The notes beneath the pieces are model-generated. The model was not told where the DNA came from, ran no database searches, and was given only the letters and a program-made list of their open reading frames with translations. A stretch of DNA of 60,976 nt from an uncultured Sandaracinus sp. (GTDB lineage: Bacteria; Myxococcota_A; Polyangia; Polyangiales; Houyiibacteriaceae), in NCBI GenBank assembly GCA_937982655.1, contig CALJLK010000352.1, positions 1-60,976 of the forward strand, written 5' to 3'. Both the position numbers and the translations under genes were made by a program. This document shows positions 1-54,920 of this stretch, piece after piece; the first letter of the stretch is position 1, and each line of letters starts with the position of its first letter.

Positions 1-2
1 GC

Positions 3-98
3 GCGGCGCGCGCGAAGGTTCCGAGCGCGGCGCGCGCGAAGGCTCCGAGCGCGGCGCGCACGAAGGTTCCGAGCGCGGCGCGCGCGAAGGTTCCGAGC
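3..98. repeat. 24-bp tandem repeat x4 (GCGGCGCGCGCGAAGGTTCCGAGC)
   Basis: Four head-to-tail units start at 3, 27, 51 and 75, with 1-2 substitutions. The reverse complement contains GGAACCTTCGCG, related to the GGATCCTTC arrays at 9303 and 53559. Confidence 0.9.
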
Positions 99-8492: not shown

Positions 8493-9254
8493 ATGACGGT
8501 CGACTTCTCCTCGCTCCCCGACATCTCCGACGAGCACCCCGAGCTCGGCCCCGAGGAGCGTTGGTACGCGGCGCACGTCAAGGCGCGCGAGCTCGCCCTC
8601 GAGGCAGTGTTCGGCGCCACCGAGCCACCCGACACCGTCCTGGCGCCCGAGGACGAAGAGGTCGCGCGCGCGTGGCCGGGTGGCGGCTTTCATCGCTACG
8701 CACCGCGCGGCGAGCGCACGAGCTGGCTCTACGTCACGCATGGGCTCTCGCAGCCCTTCGAGGAACGTGACGTCCAGGCGCTGAGGGACGACCCGGACGC
8801 CCTCTCGGGCCTCGGCCTCGAGTACGTCCTCGCGAGCGCGGAAGACGCCGCGTGGCCGCTCGAGCTCCTGCTCGGGCTCGTGCGGCAGGTGCTGCTCGAC
8901 GACGCAGCGACGCTACTCGAACCGGGTCGCCTGCGCGCCTGCCACAGCCCCATCGGAGGCCGCGGCGCGCTCCGTCACGTGCTCGCGACGTTGTCGCCGG
9001 AGTACGAGCTCGACCTGCTCTTGCCCGCCGGCCACTGCGTGCTCGTGCACCTCGTGGGCGTGACCGATGGCGAGGCCGCACGCGCGCAGGCCGAACCGGA
9101 CATCCTCGGCAGCCTGGTCCTCGAGCGCGTGCTCTACGCCTTCGGCGTCGGCGGCCTGACCGATCCCGATCGCGACTGCCTCACCACCCGAGAGGACTTC
9201 GACGCGGTGTGGAACGACGTCCGCGCCGAAGTGCTCGCGGAATCGGACGAGTGA
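8493..9254 (+). CDS. Suppressor-of-fused (SUFU)-like domain protein
   Basis: Acidic 253-aa protein with normal composition. Segments such as WLYVTHGLSQP, LEYVLASAEDAAWPLELL and VHLVGVTDGEA resemble bacterial SUFU-like (Imm-SUFU) proteins. The assignment is from memory, not from a search. Confidence 0.55.
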   Translation: MTVDFSSLPDISDEHPELGPEERWYAAHVKARELALEAVFGATEPPDTVLAPEDEEVARAWPGGGFHRYAPRGERTSWLYVTHGLSQPFEERDVQALRDDPDALSGLGLEYVLASAEDAAWPLELLLGLVRQVLLDDAATLLEPGRLRACHSPIGGRGALRHVLATLSPEYELDLLLPAGHCVLVHLVGVTDGEAARAQAEPDILGSLVLERVLYAFGVGGLTDPDRDCLTTREDFDAVWNDVRAEVLAESDE

Positions 9255-9275
9255 CCCCGCGTCAGTCGGCTCCCC

Positions 9276-9296
9276 GCTGCATCGTTCCAATGCAGC
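9276..9296 (+). terminator. Small hairpin after the SUFU-like gene
   Basis: GCTGCAT-CGTTCCA-ATGCAGC lies 22 nt after the stop. The stem is 7 bp and A/T-rich sequence follows. Confidence 0.35.
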
Positions 9297-9302
9297 AAGA
9301 AT

Positions 9303-9432
9303 GGTGAATCCTTCAGGATCAGAGGTGGATATTCGGTCGCAAGACCGGTGGACCCTTCACGATCAGCGGCGGATCCTTCAGGACCAGCGAGGGATCCGTG
9401 GGATTCAGCCGTGGATCCCTCAGATGCGCTGA
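9303..9432. repeat. Degenerate tandem array, about 6 units of 20-23 bp with a GG(A/T)(T/C)CCTTCA core
   Basis: The units are GGTGAATCCTTCAGGATCAGA / GGTGGATATTCGGTCGCAAGACC / GGTGGACCCTTCACGATCAGC / GGCGGATCCTTCAGGACCAGCGA / GGGATCCGTGGGATTCAGCC / GTGGATCCCTCAGATGCGCTGA. The array lies between convergent gene ends. Confidence 0.85.
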
Positions 9433-9447
9433 GGCTCCACGATGCGA

Positions 9448-10053
9448 TCAGAGCACGCCGAGCTGCGCTTGGAGCGCGCGCTTCTCGTCCACCGAGAGCT
9501 TGCGCATCTGGAGCTGACCCGAGCGCGGGTCCTGACCGGTGATCAGGTACCAGTCGCCGGTCGGGCGATGCTCCGCGAGCGCGAACCCGCGCGGGTCCTC
9601 CGCGATGAGCGAGAGATCCTCGGGGCGAATCGCCCCGGCCGCCGCGGGCGCGGGCTCGTCGGCCTTCGTCGGCCACGCCTCGTCGTTCGCCTTCGCCGGG
9701 AACTCGGGCTCCTTCGGCTCGGACGGCCAGCCTTGGTCGTTCGCCTTCGCCGGGAACTCGGGCGCTGCGGCGGGCGCGGCGGGCGCGGCAGGCGCCGCAG
9801 GCTTGGGCGGCGGCGGCGGCGCGTACGCCTCGACGAGCTCCTCGAGCTTCCACTGGAACTCGAGACGCTCGCGTCGCGCGGCCGCCGCGAGCAGCTCCAG
9901 CGTCGCGTGGCGAAGCGGCCCTTCGAGCCAGCTCCGCAACGTCGCGAGACCCTCGTCCCAACGATCGCGCTCGTGTCGGATCGATCGCAGCACGGCGTCG
10001 ATCGCATCCTTCAGCTCGCCCTCGGTCTTCGGCTGCGCCATCGGCTCGGTCAT
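9448..10053 (-). CDS. Hypothetical protein with a Pro/Ala linker and an internal tandem peptide repeat
   Basis: Balanced D/E/K composition and a helical N-terminus. The duplicated segment is EPEFPAKANDQGWPSEPK / EPEFPAKANDEAWPTK, and the C-terminal domain is about 55 aa. No family recognised. Confidence 0.65.
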   Translation of the reverse strand: MTEPMAQPKTEGELKDAIDAVLRSIRHERDRWDEGLATLRSWLEGPLRHATLELLAAAARRERLEFQWKLEELVEAYAPPPPPKPAAPAAPAAPAAAPEFPAKANDQGWPSEPKEPEFPAKANDEAWPTKADEPAPAAAGAIRPEDLSLIAEDPRGFALAEHRPTGDWYLITGQDPRSGQLQMRKLSVDEKRALQAQLGVL

Positions 10054-10317
10054 CGCGGCTTCGATTACGTCTCCCCGCGAAACGACGCAAGCGTTTCCTG
10101 CCGCGTAGGCCTGCGCGCACGGCCTCGCGGTTCGGTCTCCGTGATCCGCCAGAACCCGTCCTCACCGAGCCGAAGGGTGCGAGGTGTGCTCGATGCGCTC
10201 ACGCAGGTGGTCGGTCGCCCGGCCCCGTGTCACCTGGGGAGATACAATCCCGACGCCCCACTTGCCCGTAATCATTGCATTCTTTGCTGTGCACGCATCC
10301 TGCACAGTGTACGAGGC

Positions 10318-11982
10318 ATGCGTCGTTTGCTCCTCCTGGTGCCGATCGCCCTCGCCCTCGCGTGCGAGCCGGGGCGTCTGTCGCGAACGGATGTGCCGGC
10401 GGGCGACGCCAGCGTGCCGCTCCCGCCACCGGTCCCGGGCACCGACGCTGCGACGCCTCCACCTCCGCCTCCGGGCACCGACGCGGGAGTCGGGGTCGAC
10501 GCGGGAACCCCCACGCCTCCCGGAGTCGACGCGGGCCCGCCGCCGCCTCCGCCTCCTCCGCCGCCCACCGACGCGCCGCCCGGCTTCGGCCCCGTGAACG
10601 GCCTCGAGCTGACCGGCTTCGAGATCTACCAGACGATCCGTGTGCCCATCGTCGAGAACGGCGCGGTCGTCCCGCGCACGATCCCGCTCGTCGCCAACAA
10701 GCCCTCGCTGCTTCGCGTGTACGTCCGACCCACCGGGAGCTGGAGCGCGCGCTCGGTGATGGCGTTCGTCCGCATCGACACGGGCAGTGAGGTCCGCACG
10801 TTGATGGAGAGCGCGACGATCTCCGGCACCTCGTCGATCAACACGCCCTCCTCGACGCTGAACCTCGAGATCCCGCGCGACGCGCTCACGCCCTCGGCGT
10901 CGATCTCCGTCTCGCTCCTCGAGATGAGCGGCGCGGGCAGCGACCTCGCACGTTTCCCGCGCGACGGCGGAGAGCTCGCGCTCGACGCGATGCAGAACGG
11001 CGGCATCGACGTGGTGGTGGTGCCGATCCGCTACGACGCGGACGGCAGCGGTCGCATGCCCGACACGAGCGAAAGCGCGATGAACGCGCTGCGCGATCAG
11101 CTCCTCGCGATGTGGCCGGTGAGCGACGTGCGCCTGCGCGTGCGCGAGTCGGTCTCGACCAGCACCACCGTCGCGCCGACGAGCGGTCAGGCGTGGGGCT
11201 CGCTGCTCGACGGCGTGGGCAACCTCCGCCAGAGCGATCGCGCGCCCGGCAGCGAGTACTACCTCGGGCTCTTCTCGCCCGCAGCGTCGTTCCGCGAGTT
11301 CTGCGGACGCGGCTGCATCGCGGGCATCGCGCCGCTCAATCAGGGCAACTCCCAGAGCCAGCGCTACGGGCTCGCGCTCGGCTACGGCGACGAGAACAAC
11401 CGCTTCAGCGCGATCCACGAGCTCGGCCACGCGCACGGTCGTCCGCACGCGCCCTGCGGTGGCGTCAGCGGCTCCGAGCCCGGCTACCCGCACGCGGGCG
11501 GCGCGACCGGCGTCTGGGGCTACGACTTCCGCAACGACCGCCTCTACGACCCGTCCACGAAGGACTTCATGGGTTACTGCGAGCCGCAGTGGGTGAGCGA
11601 CTTCGCGTACCTGCGGCTCCACCAGCGCGTGGTCTCGGTCGCGGGCGGCAGCACGCTCTCCTGGCGTCTCGCGCCACACCACGTCTTCCGCGTGGCGCCC
11701 TTCAGCGCGCCGAGCTGGACCGGCCTCGTCGAAGAGCGCGTCACCGACGCGAGCGACGGTGAGCTCACGATGATGAAGGCGCGCGATCGCTTCGGTCGCG
11801 ACCTCGGCTGGGTGGGCGCGCGCCGCGTCGACACGAGCCTGCCCGGCTTCGCCAGCCTCCTCGTACCGGACGTGGAGGACGCGGCCTTCTTCGAGACCCC
11901 CTCCGGACAGATTTACCGCGTCGCCTCGAGCGGCGAGTCGGCCCTCCATCCCAATCCTCCCGACGACTCGAACGTGCGCTGA
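10318..11982 (+). CDS. Secreted zinc metalloprotease lipoprotein (metzincin-type HExxHxxGxxH)
   Basis: The internal ATG gives MRRLLLLVPIALALAC (lipobox). A long poly-Pro linker (PPPPPPPPPP) is followed by the zinc motif IHELGHAHGRPH. Confidence 0.8.
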   Translation: MRRLLLLVPIALALACEPGRLSRTDVPAGDASVPLPPPVPGTDAATPPPPPPGTDAGVGVDAGTPTPPGVDAGPPPPPPPPPPTDAPPGFGPVNGLELTGFEIYQTIRVPIVENGAVVPRTIPLVANKPSLLRVYVRPTGSWSARSVMAFVRIDTGSEVRTLMESATISGTSSINTPSSTLNLEIPRDALTPSASISVSLLEMSGAGSDLARFPRDGGELALDAMQNGGIDVVVVPIRYDADGSGRMPDTSESAMNALRDQLLAMWPVSDVRLRVRESVSTSTTVAPTSGQAWGSLLDGVGNLRQSDRAPGSEYYLGLFSPAASFREFCGRGCIAGIAPLNQGNSQSQRYGLALGYGDENNRFSAIHELGHAHGRPHAPCGGVSGSEPGYPHAGGATGVWGYDFRNDRLYDPSTKDFMGYCEPQWVSDFAYLRLHQRVVSVAGGSTLSWRLAPHHVFRVAPFSAPSWTGLVEERVTDASDGELTMMKARDRFGRDLGWVGARRVDTSLPGFASLLVPDVEDAAFFETPSGQIYRVASSGESALHPNPPDDSNVR

Positions 11983-26007: not shown

Positions 26008-26168
26008 CCACCGTTTCTATGGGCGTTCGCCTAGCAAAAACGTGATTTCTATCACACAAAGTTCCACCAGCTTGAAGGATTCCAACCGAAACCCATTTCG
26101 GCATGGGTCGCGGACTCGGAAAGGGCGCAGTCGAAACGGTAGTCCTTGCGATATGAACGGATAACATC

Positions 26169-53202: not shown

Positions 53203-53558
53203 TCGCGCGGACGGCGCGTCGTCGGTGTGGGCCCAGCGGTTGCGTGGACCGCTCCGAGGTGGTGAGGGAGCCCCATAGGCGAAGCCCGAGGTCACTCGCG
53301 TGGCCTCGGGCTTCTCGGGGTGCTTTGGGTGTTGTGCTTGGGTGTTTGGGTGCTGGTCGGGTGCGAGCCACGAGCCTCGTGGTCTCGGCCCTCGAGCGAC
53401 CCGGAGCGAGCTCCGAGCCCCCGGCGAGCCCGTCCCCCGACGGGCCCGCAGAGTCGTGTCGTGTCGTCGGTTTGTGCGACGATCGTTAGTAACTCACAGA
53501 AGAGTTACTCCGTTCGTCCACTCGCGCAAGCGGTTTCGACGAGTCCGGCAAAAATGGT

Positions 53559-53680
53559 GGATCCTTCGCGTGCAGTGGATCCTTCACGTGCAGCAGATCC
53601 TTCGCGTGCGGCAGGGTGGAGCCTTCGCGAGCAGCAGGATCCTCCGCACGCAGCGGGGTTCCAGCAGAACCTTCGCTCGC
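53559..53680. repeat. Degenerate tandem array, about 6 units of 18-22 bp with a GGATCCTTCGCG core
   Basis: The units are GGATCCTTCGCGTGCAGT / GGATCCTTCACGTGCAGCA / GATCCTTCGCGTGCGGCAGGGT / GGAGCCTTCGCGAGCAGCA / GGATCCTCCGCACGCAGCGG / GGTTCCAGCAGAACCTTCGCTCGCGG. The array lies between convergent gene ends (pcnB and the 53817 gene). Confidence 0.85.
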
Positions 53681-53816: not shown

Positions 53817-54719
53817 TCAGCTCGTGAGCTTCGACAGCCAAACCGCGAAGTCGGGCGCGTCGACGAGCGCGGTGAGCACACCTTCGCCTTGGACCCGCAG
53901 GTACGCGCGCACGTCCGGCAGCGCGCCGGCCTCGTCGAGCAGCTCCGCGACCGTCCGCTCGCCTTCGACCTCGAGGAACGCGGCCAGCTCCGCGCGCACG
54001 ATCGCGTGACCGAGCGCGGAGCGGAGGTCGTGCTCCACGATCGCGGGTGCGAGCTTCGCGACCTCGCGCCACGGCAGCGCGTCGAAGTCCGCGAGGATCT
54101 GCGCGAGCGGGACCTCGGCGACGTGCCGGAACGCGTGTCGCCGCAGCTCCTCCACCAGCGCGCGGCCCTCGTCCGAAGCGAGCCGCGCCGCGACCGCGTC
54201 GCGCAGGGTCGCGAACGCCGACTTGCTGAACTCCGCCGCGATCGCCTTCGCGCCCGAGAGCGCGCCGCCCGCCGCCTTGCCGCCGACGCGCGCGAGCGCG
54301 CCGAGCGCCCCCACGCCGGGCAGCTTGCCGACGAACTGCATCAGGATCTCCTGAAGCACCGGCGAGAAGAGCCGCTCGAGCAGCTTCGGATCGATCGCGT
54401 CTCGGGCCCACTCGAAGCGCGGAAAACGCGTCGCGAGGAGGAGCCGCTCGAGCTCGAGGCGCGCATCGTCGGGGAGCAGCTCGCCCACGCGGGTCTCGCG
54501 CCGCGTCGTCTCGTCGCGGAACCGGTCGAACGCGGGCAGCACGTGCTCGTCCACGCCGCGCGCGAGCGGCGGACGAACCACCGCGACCTCGAGCAACGCG
54601 AGCAGCCCCGTGACGTCGACCACGTCGCGCACGCGTCGCGCGAGCAGCGCGTCGACGACGATCGCGACCCCTTCGCGCCGGAGGTTCTCGTCGTGGCGGA
54701 GGCGATCGATCGCGGTCAC
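53817..54719 (-). CDS. Hypothetical all-helical protein
   Basis: Balanced Leu/Ala/Glu/Arg composition and no recognised family. I chose GTG 54719, with GGAG 7-10 nt upstream, because the maximal ORF (to 54881) runs through a tandem repeat. Confidence 0.5.
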   Translation of the reverse strand: MTAIDRLRHDENLRREGVAIVVDALLARRVRDVVDVTGLLALLEVAVVRPPLARGVDEHVLPAFDRFRDETTRRETRVGELLPDDARLELERLLLATRFPRFEWARDAIDPKLLERLFSPVLQEILMQFVGKLPGVGALGALARVGGKAAGGALSGAKAIAAEFSKSAFATLRDAVAARLASDEGRALVEELRRHAFRHVAEVPLAQILADFDALPWREVAKLAPAIVEHDLRSALGHAIVRAELAAFLEVEGERTVAELLDEAGALPDVRAYLRVQGEGVLTALVDAPDFAVWLSKLTS

Positions 54720-54828
54720 GCGCGCTCCGTAGAGGCAATCGCGTCGACGCGCCAGCAGCGAAGCGTCGGCGCCGCGCTCGCACCGCGTCACGCGGCGACC
54801 CGTCGTCGTCGCGACCCCGAACGGGCGC

Positions 54829-54920
54829 GTGAACGCGCGAGCTCGTGGCTCGTGAACGCGCGAGTGGGTGAACGTGGGCACGCGCGCTCCGTGAACGCGC
54901 GCGGCTCGTGAACGCGCGAG
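54829..54920. repeat. Five copies of GTGAACG(C/T)G(C/G)G at alternating 23/16-17-bp spacing
   Basis: Copies start at 54829, 54852, 54868, 54891 and 54908. They lie in the spacer between the DMT gene stop and the probable start of the 53817-54719 gene. Confidence 0.8.

What the first reader, a model, noticed from the sequence alone, without database searches (positions are those of the whole stretch)
9303..9432. Iteron-like array of about 21-bp units with a GGATCCTTCA core between convergent genes
Six head-to-tail degenerate units of 20-23 bp fill the spacer between the SUFU-like gene and the 9448-10053 gene. The core GG(A/T)(T/C)CCTTC(A/G) recurs in the arrays at 53559-53680 and, reverse-complemented, at 3-98. 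A single copy (GAAGGATTCC) also sits in the rtcB upstream spacer near 26074. A period of about two helical turns and a conserved core with variable flanks is the architecture of iterons or arrays of protein-binding sites, such as partition sites, nucleoid-protein sites or regulator sites. It is not the architecture of terminators. The units are not palindromic apart from the BamHI-like GGATCC.
Basis: seen in the sequence. Interest (0 to 1): 0.62.

Follow-up and report, generated by a model that had tools for sequence, protein, structure and literature searches.

The report
Orphan transposase end-repeat cluster
The "iteron-like" array is a worn, gene-less copy of the short end sequence of a tyrosine (RAYT/TIRYT-type) transposase element found scattered through this myxobacterial genus, followed by stuttered partial copies of that end; this is selfish-DNA debris, not a replication, partition or regulator site.

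Summary
The array is real and lies between convergent genes.

- **Distribution:** the head occurs 16, 21, 6 and 7 times in the four genomes of this genus. It is absent from 27 other genera, and a reversed control gave 0.
- **Position:** every copy examined is intergenic, with no fixed orientation to neighbouring genes and no functional theme among them.
- **Turnover:** heads come and go between relatives, and copy number varies at shared sites.
- **Transposase link:** head variants bracket, pointing outward, all five intact copies examined of a 352-aa RAYT-like Y1/HUH transposase gene, in three species. In one species the bracketing heads are the GGATCC type with the same stutter arrays. Two ~50%-identical metagenomic homologues have the same design.

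The array is therefore best read as an orphan, decaying end-repeat cluster of a TIRtron/REPtron-like element. The 3-98 repeat is unrelated; it codes for an octapeptide repeat. The 26074 copy is chance. The iteron, partition-site and regulator-site readings are not supported. How the stutter arises is inferred, not shown. No transcript data could be obtained.

The parts
9276..9296 (+). 7-bp hairpin GCTGCAT-cgttcca-ATGCAGC, 22 nt after the SUFU-like stop codon and directly abutting the head. Probably the upstream gene's terminator-like stem, so membership in the element is uncertain.
   Evidence: Read from the sequence. It is the only stable stem in the DNA fold of this region.
9297..9313 (+). 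Degenerate 'head' AAGAATGGTGAATCCTT, the conserved end sequence of the RAYT/TIRYT-like element family. Its GGTGG core is mutated to GGTGA.
   Evidence: nhmmer with the head profile gives E=0.0012 over the whole genome. It aligns with 35 other heads.
9303..9432 (+). Six decayed stutter units of 21-24 nt, each a partial re-copy of the distal half of the head (GGATCCTTC-like) plus a few flanking bases.
   Evidence: The same design lies next to transposase-flanking heads in G003 and in two metagenome contigs.
53550..53566 (+). Canonical head AAAAATGGTGGATCCTT of the second orphan cluster in the window.
   Evidence: Best nhmmer hit in the genome, E=8.4e-7, and an exact match to the genus-wide 17-mer.
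53559..53680 (+). Fresher stutter array, with periods of 18, 18, 23 and 19 nt. It also lies in a convergent-gene spacer (poly(A) polymerase-family (PolyA_pol) gene versus the 53817-54881 minus gene). It is absent at the syntenic site in G001.

Best explanation
The array is an orphan, decaying cluster of the terminal repeat of a genus-restricted mobile element. That element's enzyme is a 352-aa RAYT/TIRYT-like single-strand-DNA tyrosine (Y1, HUH) transposase. The conserved head carries a GGTGG core and marks the outer end of the element. Intact transposase genes have heads on both sides, pointing outward. Beyond each head lie tandem 'stutter' units that repeat only the distal half of the head (GGATCCTTC, or GCACCTT in sister lineages) plus 8-15 nt of flank. 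Solitary heads with such stutters are scattered in intergenic DNA, and the two arrays in this window are of that kind. Shown: family membership, genus restriction, turnover between relatives, and physical association with the transposase gene in three species and two metagenome contigs. Inferred: the transposase recognises the head, possibly as a small GGTGG-loop hairpin in single-stranded DNA. Also inferred: the stutters are scars of repeated nicking and rejoining or nick-primed re-synthesis at that end, with ordinary replication slippage as the alternative source. The 9297 copy has a mutated core and diverged units, so it is probably inert.
For: (1) Head enrichment and restriction. The 17-mer occurs 16, 21, 6 and 7 times in the four genomes of the genus and 0 times in 27 other genera. 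The reversed control gave 0. (2) Every array of the family begins with a head. (3) All heads examined in G000 are intergenic, their orientation to neighbouring genes is mixed, and flanking genes are unrelated. (4) Turnover. There is one head in G000:C573 versus four in G001:C165, and one versus three at C519/C106. G002 has heads where the syntenic G000 sites are empty. The 53550 cluster is missing in G001. (5) The 352-aa protein matches NCBIfam NF047646, REP-associated tyrosine transposase, at E=1.8e-14. Pfam Y1_Tnp hits 5 of 8 family members. A family profile's top PDB hit is TnpA-REP 4ER8, with the HUH motif (H126-L-H128) and Y185 aligned. JGI names its homologues RayT. (6) At all five intact loci examined (G000 C449 and C291, G001 C199, G003 C35 and C201), heads on the opposite strand lie upstream of the gene. 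The nearest ends about 48 nt before the ATG. Same-strand heads lie downstream at four of the five; at C35 the downstream one is only a degenerate remnant. (7) In G003 these flanking heads are the GGATCC type, with GGATCC stutter arrays. (8) Two metagenome contigs encoding ~50%-identical homologues have the same layout, with heads GAAACGTGGTGGCAC(G/C)TT and stutters of 13-16 nt. (9) Homology between the G000 gene copies starts at the outer edge of the 5' head. Three orphan heads share about 40 further nt with the transposase 5' leader. (10) Published precedent exists: RAYT-like genes flanked by terminal inverted repeats that also form dispersed single, dimeric or grouped families (TIRtrons/TIRYT, PMC3733652).
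Against: There is no transposase gene in this window. In G000 and G001 the heads next to the gene are the GGCAC(C/G) subtype, while the orphans are GGATCC, so current trans-activity on the orphans is unproven. The proposed hairpin is thermodynamically weak (mean z -0.48 versus shuffles). The abundant AATGG...CCTT flavour has a U.C mismatch in it. The covariation count was made on hand-picked distinct sequence types. Downstream heads lie at variable distances (135-300 nt) in non-homologous sequence, and homology between gene copies stops at the stop codon, so a defined right end is not established. Orphan clusters contain only direct copies, never inverted pairs. Copy number is low, with the most frequent flanking 16-mers at 7-10 copies.
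Confidence: 0.7

Rival explanations
1. The arrays are binding sites for a host DNA-binding protein (nucleoid-associated, regulator, or replication/partition-related). On this view the transposase gene merely sits next to such sites or targets them.
For: A ~21-nt core is conserved while the surrounding sequence turns over. Unit spacing is 15-24 bp. GAAGGATCCTTC is a near-palindrome. Head-strand GC skew leans positive, 9 versus 2 contigs in G000, which might hint at replication-oriented sites.
Against: There is no common function or orientation among neighbouring genes. Sites are gained and lost between close relatives. The head subtype co-diverges with the adjacent transposase gene: GGATCC in G003, GGCAC in G000/G001, GAAACGTGGTGGCAC in the 50% homologues. 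There is no rep, par or initiator gene nearby. The skew bias weakens once syntenic loci are counted once and relatives are added.
Confidence: 0.1
2. Each head plus array is a small non-coding RNA with repeated GGA-containing loops that sequesters an RNA-binding protein such as CsrA, in the manner of CsrB/RsmZ.
For: The head can be drawn as AAGG[GUGGAU]CCUU, a GGA hexaloop like known CsrA sites (my own knowledge of the RsmE-hcnA structure, not tested here). The 15-24 nt spacing suits a CsrA dimer. A CsrA homologue exists in G000 and G001. The loci are intergenic and independent of flanking gene orientation.
Against: CsrA was not found in G003 (98% complete), which has heads and arrays. The CsrA here is a flagellar-type CsrA-FliW fusion next to a gene with flagellin N- and C-terminal domains (flgL-like). 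Sister heads have GGC rather than GGA in the loop. No sigma-70-type promoter, intrinsic terminator or Rfam family was detected. Fold z-scores are unremarkable. The RNA idea does not explain the inverted flanking of the transposase gene.
Confidence: 0.06
3. The arrays are plain replication-slippage tandem repeats in unconstrained spacer DNA. On this view there is no shared element, and the similarity between arrays is coincidental.
For: The genome is very rich in tandem repeats, with 3672 merged TRF arrays. G003 has an unrelated 18-nt x17 repeat in the same spacer. Units within an array are more alike than units between arrays.
Against: Slippage cannot explain a 17-21-nt head shared by dozens of loci in four species with zero hits in controls and in other genera. 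It also cannot explain the head's fixed position and orientation around the transposase gene. Slippage may still be the process that multiplies the units once a head is present.
Confidence: 0.08

Closest known systems
TIRtrons / TIRYT: RAYT-like tyrosine transposase genes flanked by terminal inverted repeats (Di Nocera et al. 2013, PMC3733652)
   Same: A RAYT-like gene with an HUH motif and catalytic Tyr is flanked by short inverted repeats that are not classical GTAG REPs. Those repeats also form a moderately abundant dispersed family found singly, in pairs or in groups. The protein is longer than a classical RAYT.
   Different: Here each repeat is followed by tandem partial re-copies of only its distal half. 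Orphan clusters are all direct, never inverted. The gene is multi-copy, with reiterated 5' leaders. No GGGGWSAS motif is present.
REP / BIME / REPIN with RAYT (REPtron; E. coli TnpA-REP, PDB 4ER8; Bertels et al. 2017, PMC5581495)
   Same: The enzyme belongs to the same family (NCBIfam NF047646 hit; 4ER8 is the top PDB hit). The gene is bracketed by its cognate repeat in inverted orientation. Repeats are intergenic and lineage-restricted.
   Different: The repeats are not GC-rich imperfect palindromes, carry no GTAG tag, form no REPIN doublets, and number tens rather than hundreds of copies. The gene is not single-copy.
IS200/IS605-family insertion sequences
   Same: The transposase is a Y1 HUH enzyme (Pfam Y1_Tnp in 5 of 8 members). 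The gene is multi-copy. Short structured ends are recognised rather than long inverted repeats.
   Different: IS200/IS605 ends are hairpins on the same strand, whereas these heads are inverted. The protein is about 2.5 times longer. A conserved right end beyond the stop codon was not found.
Iterons of plasmid or phage replication origins
   Same: Both are direct repeats of about two helical turns with a conserved core.
   Different: There is no initiator gene, AT-rich region or DnaA boxes. The arrays occur at many chromosomal loci, with irregular periods (15-24 nt) and array-specific variable parts, and they are unstable between close relatives.
MIRU-type intergenic VNTRs of mycobacteria (from my own knowledge; not tested here)
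   Same: Both are dispersed intergenic tandem repeats in a high-GC genome whose copy number differs between close relatives.
   Different: MIRUs are 40-100-bp units with no known transposase and no conserved leading head.

Membership tests
TIRtron / TIRYT | A RAYT-like tyrosine transposase gene with an HUH motif and catalytic Tyr | tested here: met
   NF047646 at E=1.8e-14 (53.9 bits, below the curated cut-off of 80). Pfam Y1_Tnp in 5 of 8 aligned homologues. The profile's top PDB hit is 4ER8, with HLH (126-128) and Y185 aligned.
TIRtron / TIRYT | The gene is flanked by short inverted repeats that are not GTAG REPs | tested here: met
   At all five intact loci in three species, opposite-strand heads lie upstream; same-strand heads lie downstream at four, with only a degenerate remnant at C35. 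Two ~50% homologues show the same layout.
TIRtron / TIRYT | The flanking repeat also forms a dispersed family (single, dimeric or grouped) | tested here: met
   There are 16-21 exact 17-mers per near-complete genome at about 13 loci, most of them grouped. The window's two arrays are such orphans.
REP / RAYT (REPtron, REPIN) | The repeat is an imperfect palindrome forming a stable stem-loop, usually with a GTAG or CGTC tag | tested here: not met
   There is no tag. The best hairpin has a 4-6-bp stem at -1 to -6.6 kcal/mol, with mean z -0.48 versus shuffles. No larger conserved stem appears in the flanks. Covariation on curated rows is suggestive only.
REP / RAYT (REPtron, REPIN) | High copy number and inverted REP doublets; a single-copy RAYT | tested here: not met
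   Flanking 16-mers occur 7-10 times. All heads within each cluster examined share one orientation. G000 holds at least 5 gene copies or fragments.
IS200/IS605 | Left and right subterminal hairpins on the same strand, with both element boundaries conserved between copies | tested here: not met
   The heads are inverted. Homology between copies runs from the outer edge of the 5' head only as far as the stop codon.
Replication-origin iterons / partition sites | Adjacent initiator or par gene, a single origin-type locus, and regular, conserved units | tested here: not met
   The neighbours are a SUFU-like gene and an unknown gene. There are about 13 loci per genome. Periods are irregular. The arrays are not conserved at syntenic sites.
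CsrB/RsmZ-type CsrA-sequestering sRNA | CsrA is present wherever the RNA is present | tested here: not met
   CsrA was found in G000 and G001 but not in G003 (98% complete), which has heads and arrays.
CsrB/RsmZ-type CsrA-sequestering sRNA | A discrete transcript with its own promoter and terminator | not testable with these tools
Consensus scans found no promoter or terminator, but these scans are E. coli-type.

The most novel reading that the evidence does not exclude
The stutter arrays are in-vivo footprints of the transposase. On this reading the enzyme nicks single-stranded DNA inside or just after the GGTGG core. Repeated rejoining out of register, or nick-primed short re-synthesis, then lays down tandem copies of the 15-24 nt just distal to the nick. 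That would make a Y1/HUH transposase a generator of VNTR-like arrays, and would expose its cleavage site and polarity directly in genome sequence. Support so far: partial units begin within or right after GGTGG in four diverged lineages (read by eye for the GGATCC family). In two metagenome loci, 18 of 30 downstream copies kept <=1 nt left of the boundary, and the others that kept 15 nt or more were whole heads.
Probability: 0.25. Interest if true: 0.6.

Novelty: new variant of a known kind. Interest (0 to 1): 0.38.

Why it matters
For this window, the result removes a false lead. There is no cryptic origin, partition site or regulon operator here, and the two arrays need no functional annotation beyond "transposon-end relic".

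More broadly, how RAYT-type enzymes spread their short repeats is still unsettled. A family whose ends carry ordered partial re-copies with a sharp boundary in a conserved GGTGG core offers a simple hypothesis for where the enzyme cuts, and it can be tested at the bench.

The arrays also differ in copy number between close relatives, so they could serve as strain markers for these uncultured Sandaracinus-like myxobacteria. They break short-read assemblies too: several lie at contig ends.

Tried and rejected
- **Coding repeat or small ORF:** rejected. The ATG in some heads is not conserved, and periods of 15-24 nt are not multiples of three.
- **Promoter:** rejected. The head fits no sigma-70, sigma-54 or ECF pattern read by eye, and the scans found nothing.
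- **Intrinsic terminator on either strand:** rejected. The stem is too weak, orientation to genes is mixed, and the scan found nothing.
- **Known RNA family:** no Rfam hit at gathering or relaxed thresholds.
- **CsrA sponge:** set aside because CsrA is absent from G003.
- **Shine-Dalgarno or 16S-tail mimicry, and tRNA 3'-end or att-site likeness:** considered by eye and dropped as unconvincing.
- **Replication-fork or Ter-like polar sites:** the GC-skew test gave 9 versus 2 in G000, but the result was mixed in relatives and the loci are not independent, so it is inconclusive.
- **Regulon theme among neighbours:** none.
- **Core-only definition of the family (GGATCCTTC with <=2 mismatches):** this picks up mostly unrelated coding repeats.
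- **Loose head pattern:** noisier than its reversed control, 107 versus 224 sites, so it was not used for statistics.
- **AlphaFold model of the transposase:** pLDDT 50, too poor for a fold search.
- **phmmer of the single protein against PDB, and Pfam on the single protein:** no hits. Profiles were needed.
- **Script to tally stutter breakpoints:** my pattern missed the main GGATCC family, so it covered only the two metagenome loci.

Full report
**What is in the sequence.**
The 193-nt spacer between the SUFU-like gene (8493-9254, +) and the gene at 9448-10053 (-) holds six degenerate head-to-tail units of 21-24 nt. Five of them match GGATCCTTC on the same strand with at most two mismatches. 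TRF scores only the central 2.5 units.

The convergent gene arrangement is correct. A long plus-strand ORF (9442-11982) overlaps the minus gene, but codon-position GC content shows the minus gene is real at 9448-10053. The plus ORF is coding only from about 10400 onward, where it has an M66-peptidase hit.

I collected every cluster of the core in the whole assembly (8.2 Mb, 620 contigs, 70% GC). Almost every true array begins with a conserved head, GG(C/A)AARAWKGGTGGATCCTT.
- In the window it is AAGAATGGTGAATCCTT at 9297-9313. This copy is degenerate, with nhmmer E=0.0012 genome-wide.
- The second copy, AAAAATGGTGGATCCTT at 53550-53566, is the best hit in the genome.

After the head, each array repeats GGATCCTTC plus its own 6-15-nt variable part. 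Periods are 15-24 nt, so the arrays are not coding.

- The 24-nt x4 repeat at 3-98 has no head and is in frame as (RGAREGSE)x4 at the start of the downstream membrane-protein ORF. The G001 orthologue has a degenerate version of the same charged peptide region.
- The single copy near 26074 is what chance gives. One-mismatch matches occur about once per 3.3 kb.

**Distribution.**
- The exact 17-mer occurs 16, 21, 6 and 7 times in the four genomes of this genus.
- It does not occur in 27 other genera of the same family and order, and a reversed control gave zero.
- Earlier notes of this scan place the genome among uncultured Sandaracinus-like myxobacteria, and public homologues of its proteins carry such names.
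- All heads in G000 are intergenic.
- Relative to the head, neighbouring genes are divergent, convergent or co-directional.
- The neighbours have no common function. They include an oxidoreductase, a heme O synthase, an Hsp70, a TonB receptor, an amylase and a flotillin.

**Turnover between relatives.**
- At the 9297 spacer, G001 (about 92% identical in the flanking genes) has a degenerate head (GGCAACGAAGGCGGATCCTTCGAC) followed by different repeats.
- G003 has an unrelated 18-nt x17 repeat in that spacer.
- The 53550 head and array are absent from G001, although the sequence just upstream is conserved.
- G000:C573 has one head where G001:C165 has four. G000:C519 has one where G001:C106 has three.
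- Two G002 head loci are empty at the syntenic G000 sites.

This is the behaviour of mobile or rapidly rearranging DNA, not of a conserved host site.

**The link to a transposase.**
Loosening the head pattern revealed sister subtypes in G000:
- AAAAACGGTGGCACGTT
- AAAAAGGGTGGCACCTT
- AAGAATGGTGGCACCTT

These cluster on a few contigs. They lie next to a 352-aa gene. The gene's product has several lines of support as a tyrosine transposase:
- It carries an HLH (HUH) motif at 126-128 and a YVLENP tyrosine at 185.
- It matches NCBIfam "REP-associated tyrosine transposase" at E=1.8e-14, below the curated cut-off.
- Pfam Y1_Tnp matches 5 of 8 aligned homologues.
- A profile of the family has E. coli TnpA-REP (4ER8) as its top PDB hit, with both catalytic motifs aligned, though weakly (E=0.026).
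- JGI names public homologues "REP element-mobilizing transposase RayT".
- Close copies exist only in this genus. G000 has at least five copies or fragments, G001 has many, G003 has two, and none was found in the 56%-complete G002. Homologues at 33-41% identity occur in five other genera.

**Arrangement around the gene.**
At all five intact loci examined (G000 C449 and C291, G001 C199, G003 C35 and C201), heads on the opposite strand lie upstream of the gene. The nearest one ends about 48 nt before the ATG. Heads on the gene's strand lie downstream at four of the five loci; at C35 the downstream same-strand head is only a degenerate remnant. So the heads point outward on both sides.

In G003 the flanking heads are the GGATCC type and carry GGATCC stutter arrays like those in the window. 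Two metagenome contigs encoding ~50%-identical homologues have the same design. Their heads are GAAACGTGGTGGCAC(G/C)TT and their stutters are 13-16 nt, made of GCACCTT plus flank.

Homology between the G000 gene copies begins exactly at the outer edge of the 5' head and ends at the stop codon. Three orphan GGATCC heads share about 40 further nucleotides with the transposase 5' leader. The head subtype therefore co-diverges with the gene, which argues against the gene merely inserting next to a host site.

**What it most likely is.**
The closest published kind is the TIRtron. This is a RAYT-like (TIRYT) gene flanked by short inverted repeats that are not classical REPs, and those repeats can also form moderately abundant families found singly, in pairs or grouped (PMC3733652).

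It fails the tests for classical REP/REPIN systems on four counts:
- It has no GTAG tag.
- It has no stable palindrome.
- Its flanking 16-mers number only 7-10 copies, against the much higher figures reported for REPIN-associated RAYT groups (PMC5581495).
- The gene is not single-copy.

It also differs from IS200/IS605, whose end hairpins lie on one strand. The window's arrays are orphan members. The 9297 copy has a mutated GGTGG core and diverged units, and is probably inert.

**How it may work (inferred).**
The only block invariant across all lineages is GGTGG. In several subtypes the flanks can pair around it:
- AAGG[GTGGAT]CCTT.
- AACG[GTGGCA]CGTT, which has a compensatory C-G.
- AACGTG[GTGG]CACGTT in the 50% homologues.

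On a hand-picked set of 17 distinct types, 85% of cells pair, against 76% in shuffles and at most 44% when the partner is slid. The stems are weak, however, and the commonest AATGG flavour has a mismatch. I therefore rate the hairpin as suggestive only.

Partial units start within or right after GGTGG, while longer duplications include the whole head and upstream sequence. I read this by eye for the GGATCC family. It was tallied only for the two metagenome loci.

This pattern fits repeated nicking and rejoining, or nick-primed re-synthesis, at the element end. Ordinary slippage seeded by the head is the alternative.

**Rivals.**
- **Host-protein site array:** not excluded, but it lacks any regulon, synteny or partner gene.
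- **CsrA-sponge RNA:** considered because the head resembles a GGA hexaloop and a CsrA homologue exists. That CsrA is a flagellar CsrA-FliW fusion found only in G000 and G001, while G003 has heads without it. No promoter, terminator or Rfam match was found.
- **Pure slippage:** cannot explain the shared head.

**Relation to earlier notes of this scan.**
That is the same family. It agrees with this reading but is not independent proof.

**Verdict.**
The iteron, partition-site and regulator-site readings are not supported. The array is an orphan end-repeat cluster of a RAYT/TIRYT-like element (confidence about 0.7). The stutter habit and its sharp boundary are the only unusual aspect.

Noticed in passing
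G000 contig C588:23377-24030 (locus L048:1501-2154); also G001:C527: A 217-aa ORF fuses a CsrA domain (residues 1-49) to a FliW domain (78-193). It lies directly after a gene with flagellin N- and C-terminal domains (flgL-like) and before a T2SSE-type ATPase. CsrA was not found in G002, G003 or three other genera of the family. Flagellar-type genes and a regulator-antagonist fusion are unexpected in a myxobacterium.
   Followed up: partly
window 53270-53467: This intergenic stretch is 95% identical to G001, higher than the 92-93% of the flanking coding DNA. It contains a strong stem (gaagcccgagg...cctcgggcttc) followed by G/T-rich repeats (ggtgctttgggtgttgtgcttgggtgtttgggtgctgg). It may be a conserved non-coding RNA or terminator module downstream of the poly(A) polymerase-family (PolyA_pol) gene. 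A second conserved hairpin (AGTAACTC...GAGTTACT) lies at 53491-53512.
   Followed up: no
window 1-98: The 24-nt x4 repeat encodes (RGAREGSE)x4 at the N-terminus of the 2-1912 membrane-protein ORF. G001 has a degenerate, unexpanded version. The repeat sits at the contig start, so its true length is unknown.
   Followed up: yes
window 9442-11982 (+) versus 9448-10053 (-): The 846-aa plus ORF is a high-GC artefact over its first ~950 nt, where it is antisense to a real minus gene. It becomes a real M66-like peptidase gene from about 10400. Automatic gene callers could mis-annotate this.
   Followed up: yes
G003:C124 (locus L022), syntenic to window 9255-9447: The same convergent spacer in G003 is filled by about 17 copies of an unrelated 18-nt unit (GCCGTGTCCGGTTCCGCG). 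Spacers in this genus seem generally prone to tandem expansion; TRF merged 3672 arrays in G000.
   Followed up: no
G000 genome-wide; for example C87:37659-37731 and C410:5180-5254: The commonest 16-mers (GGCGGCTGACCCCGCC and its neighbours, about 360 copies) belong to the separate GC-rich hairpin repeat already noted by this scan. G000 also has four distant Y1-transposase paralogues (about 31% identity; C555, C308, C433, C152). One of these might be that repeat's cognate enzyme.
   Followed up: no
G000 C449:3110-3960; G001 C199: The transposase gene's first ~130 nt, together with its upstream head, is reiterated 7 or more times in tandem ahead of the intact gene. This gives a pile of promoter-plus-leader copies.
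   Followed up: partly
It is unrelated to the head family.
   Followed up: no
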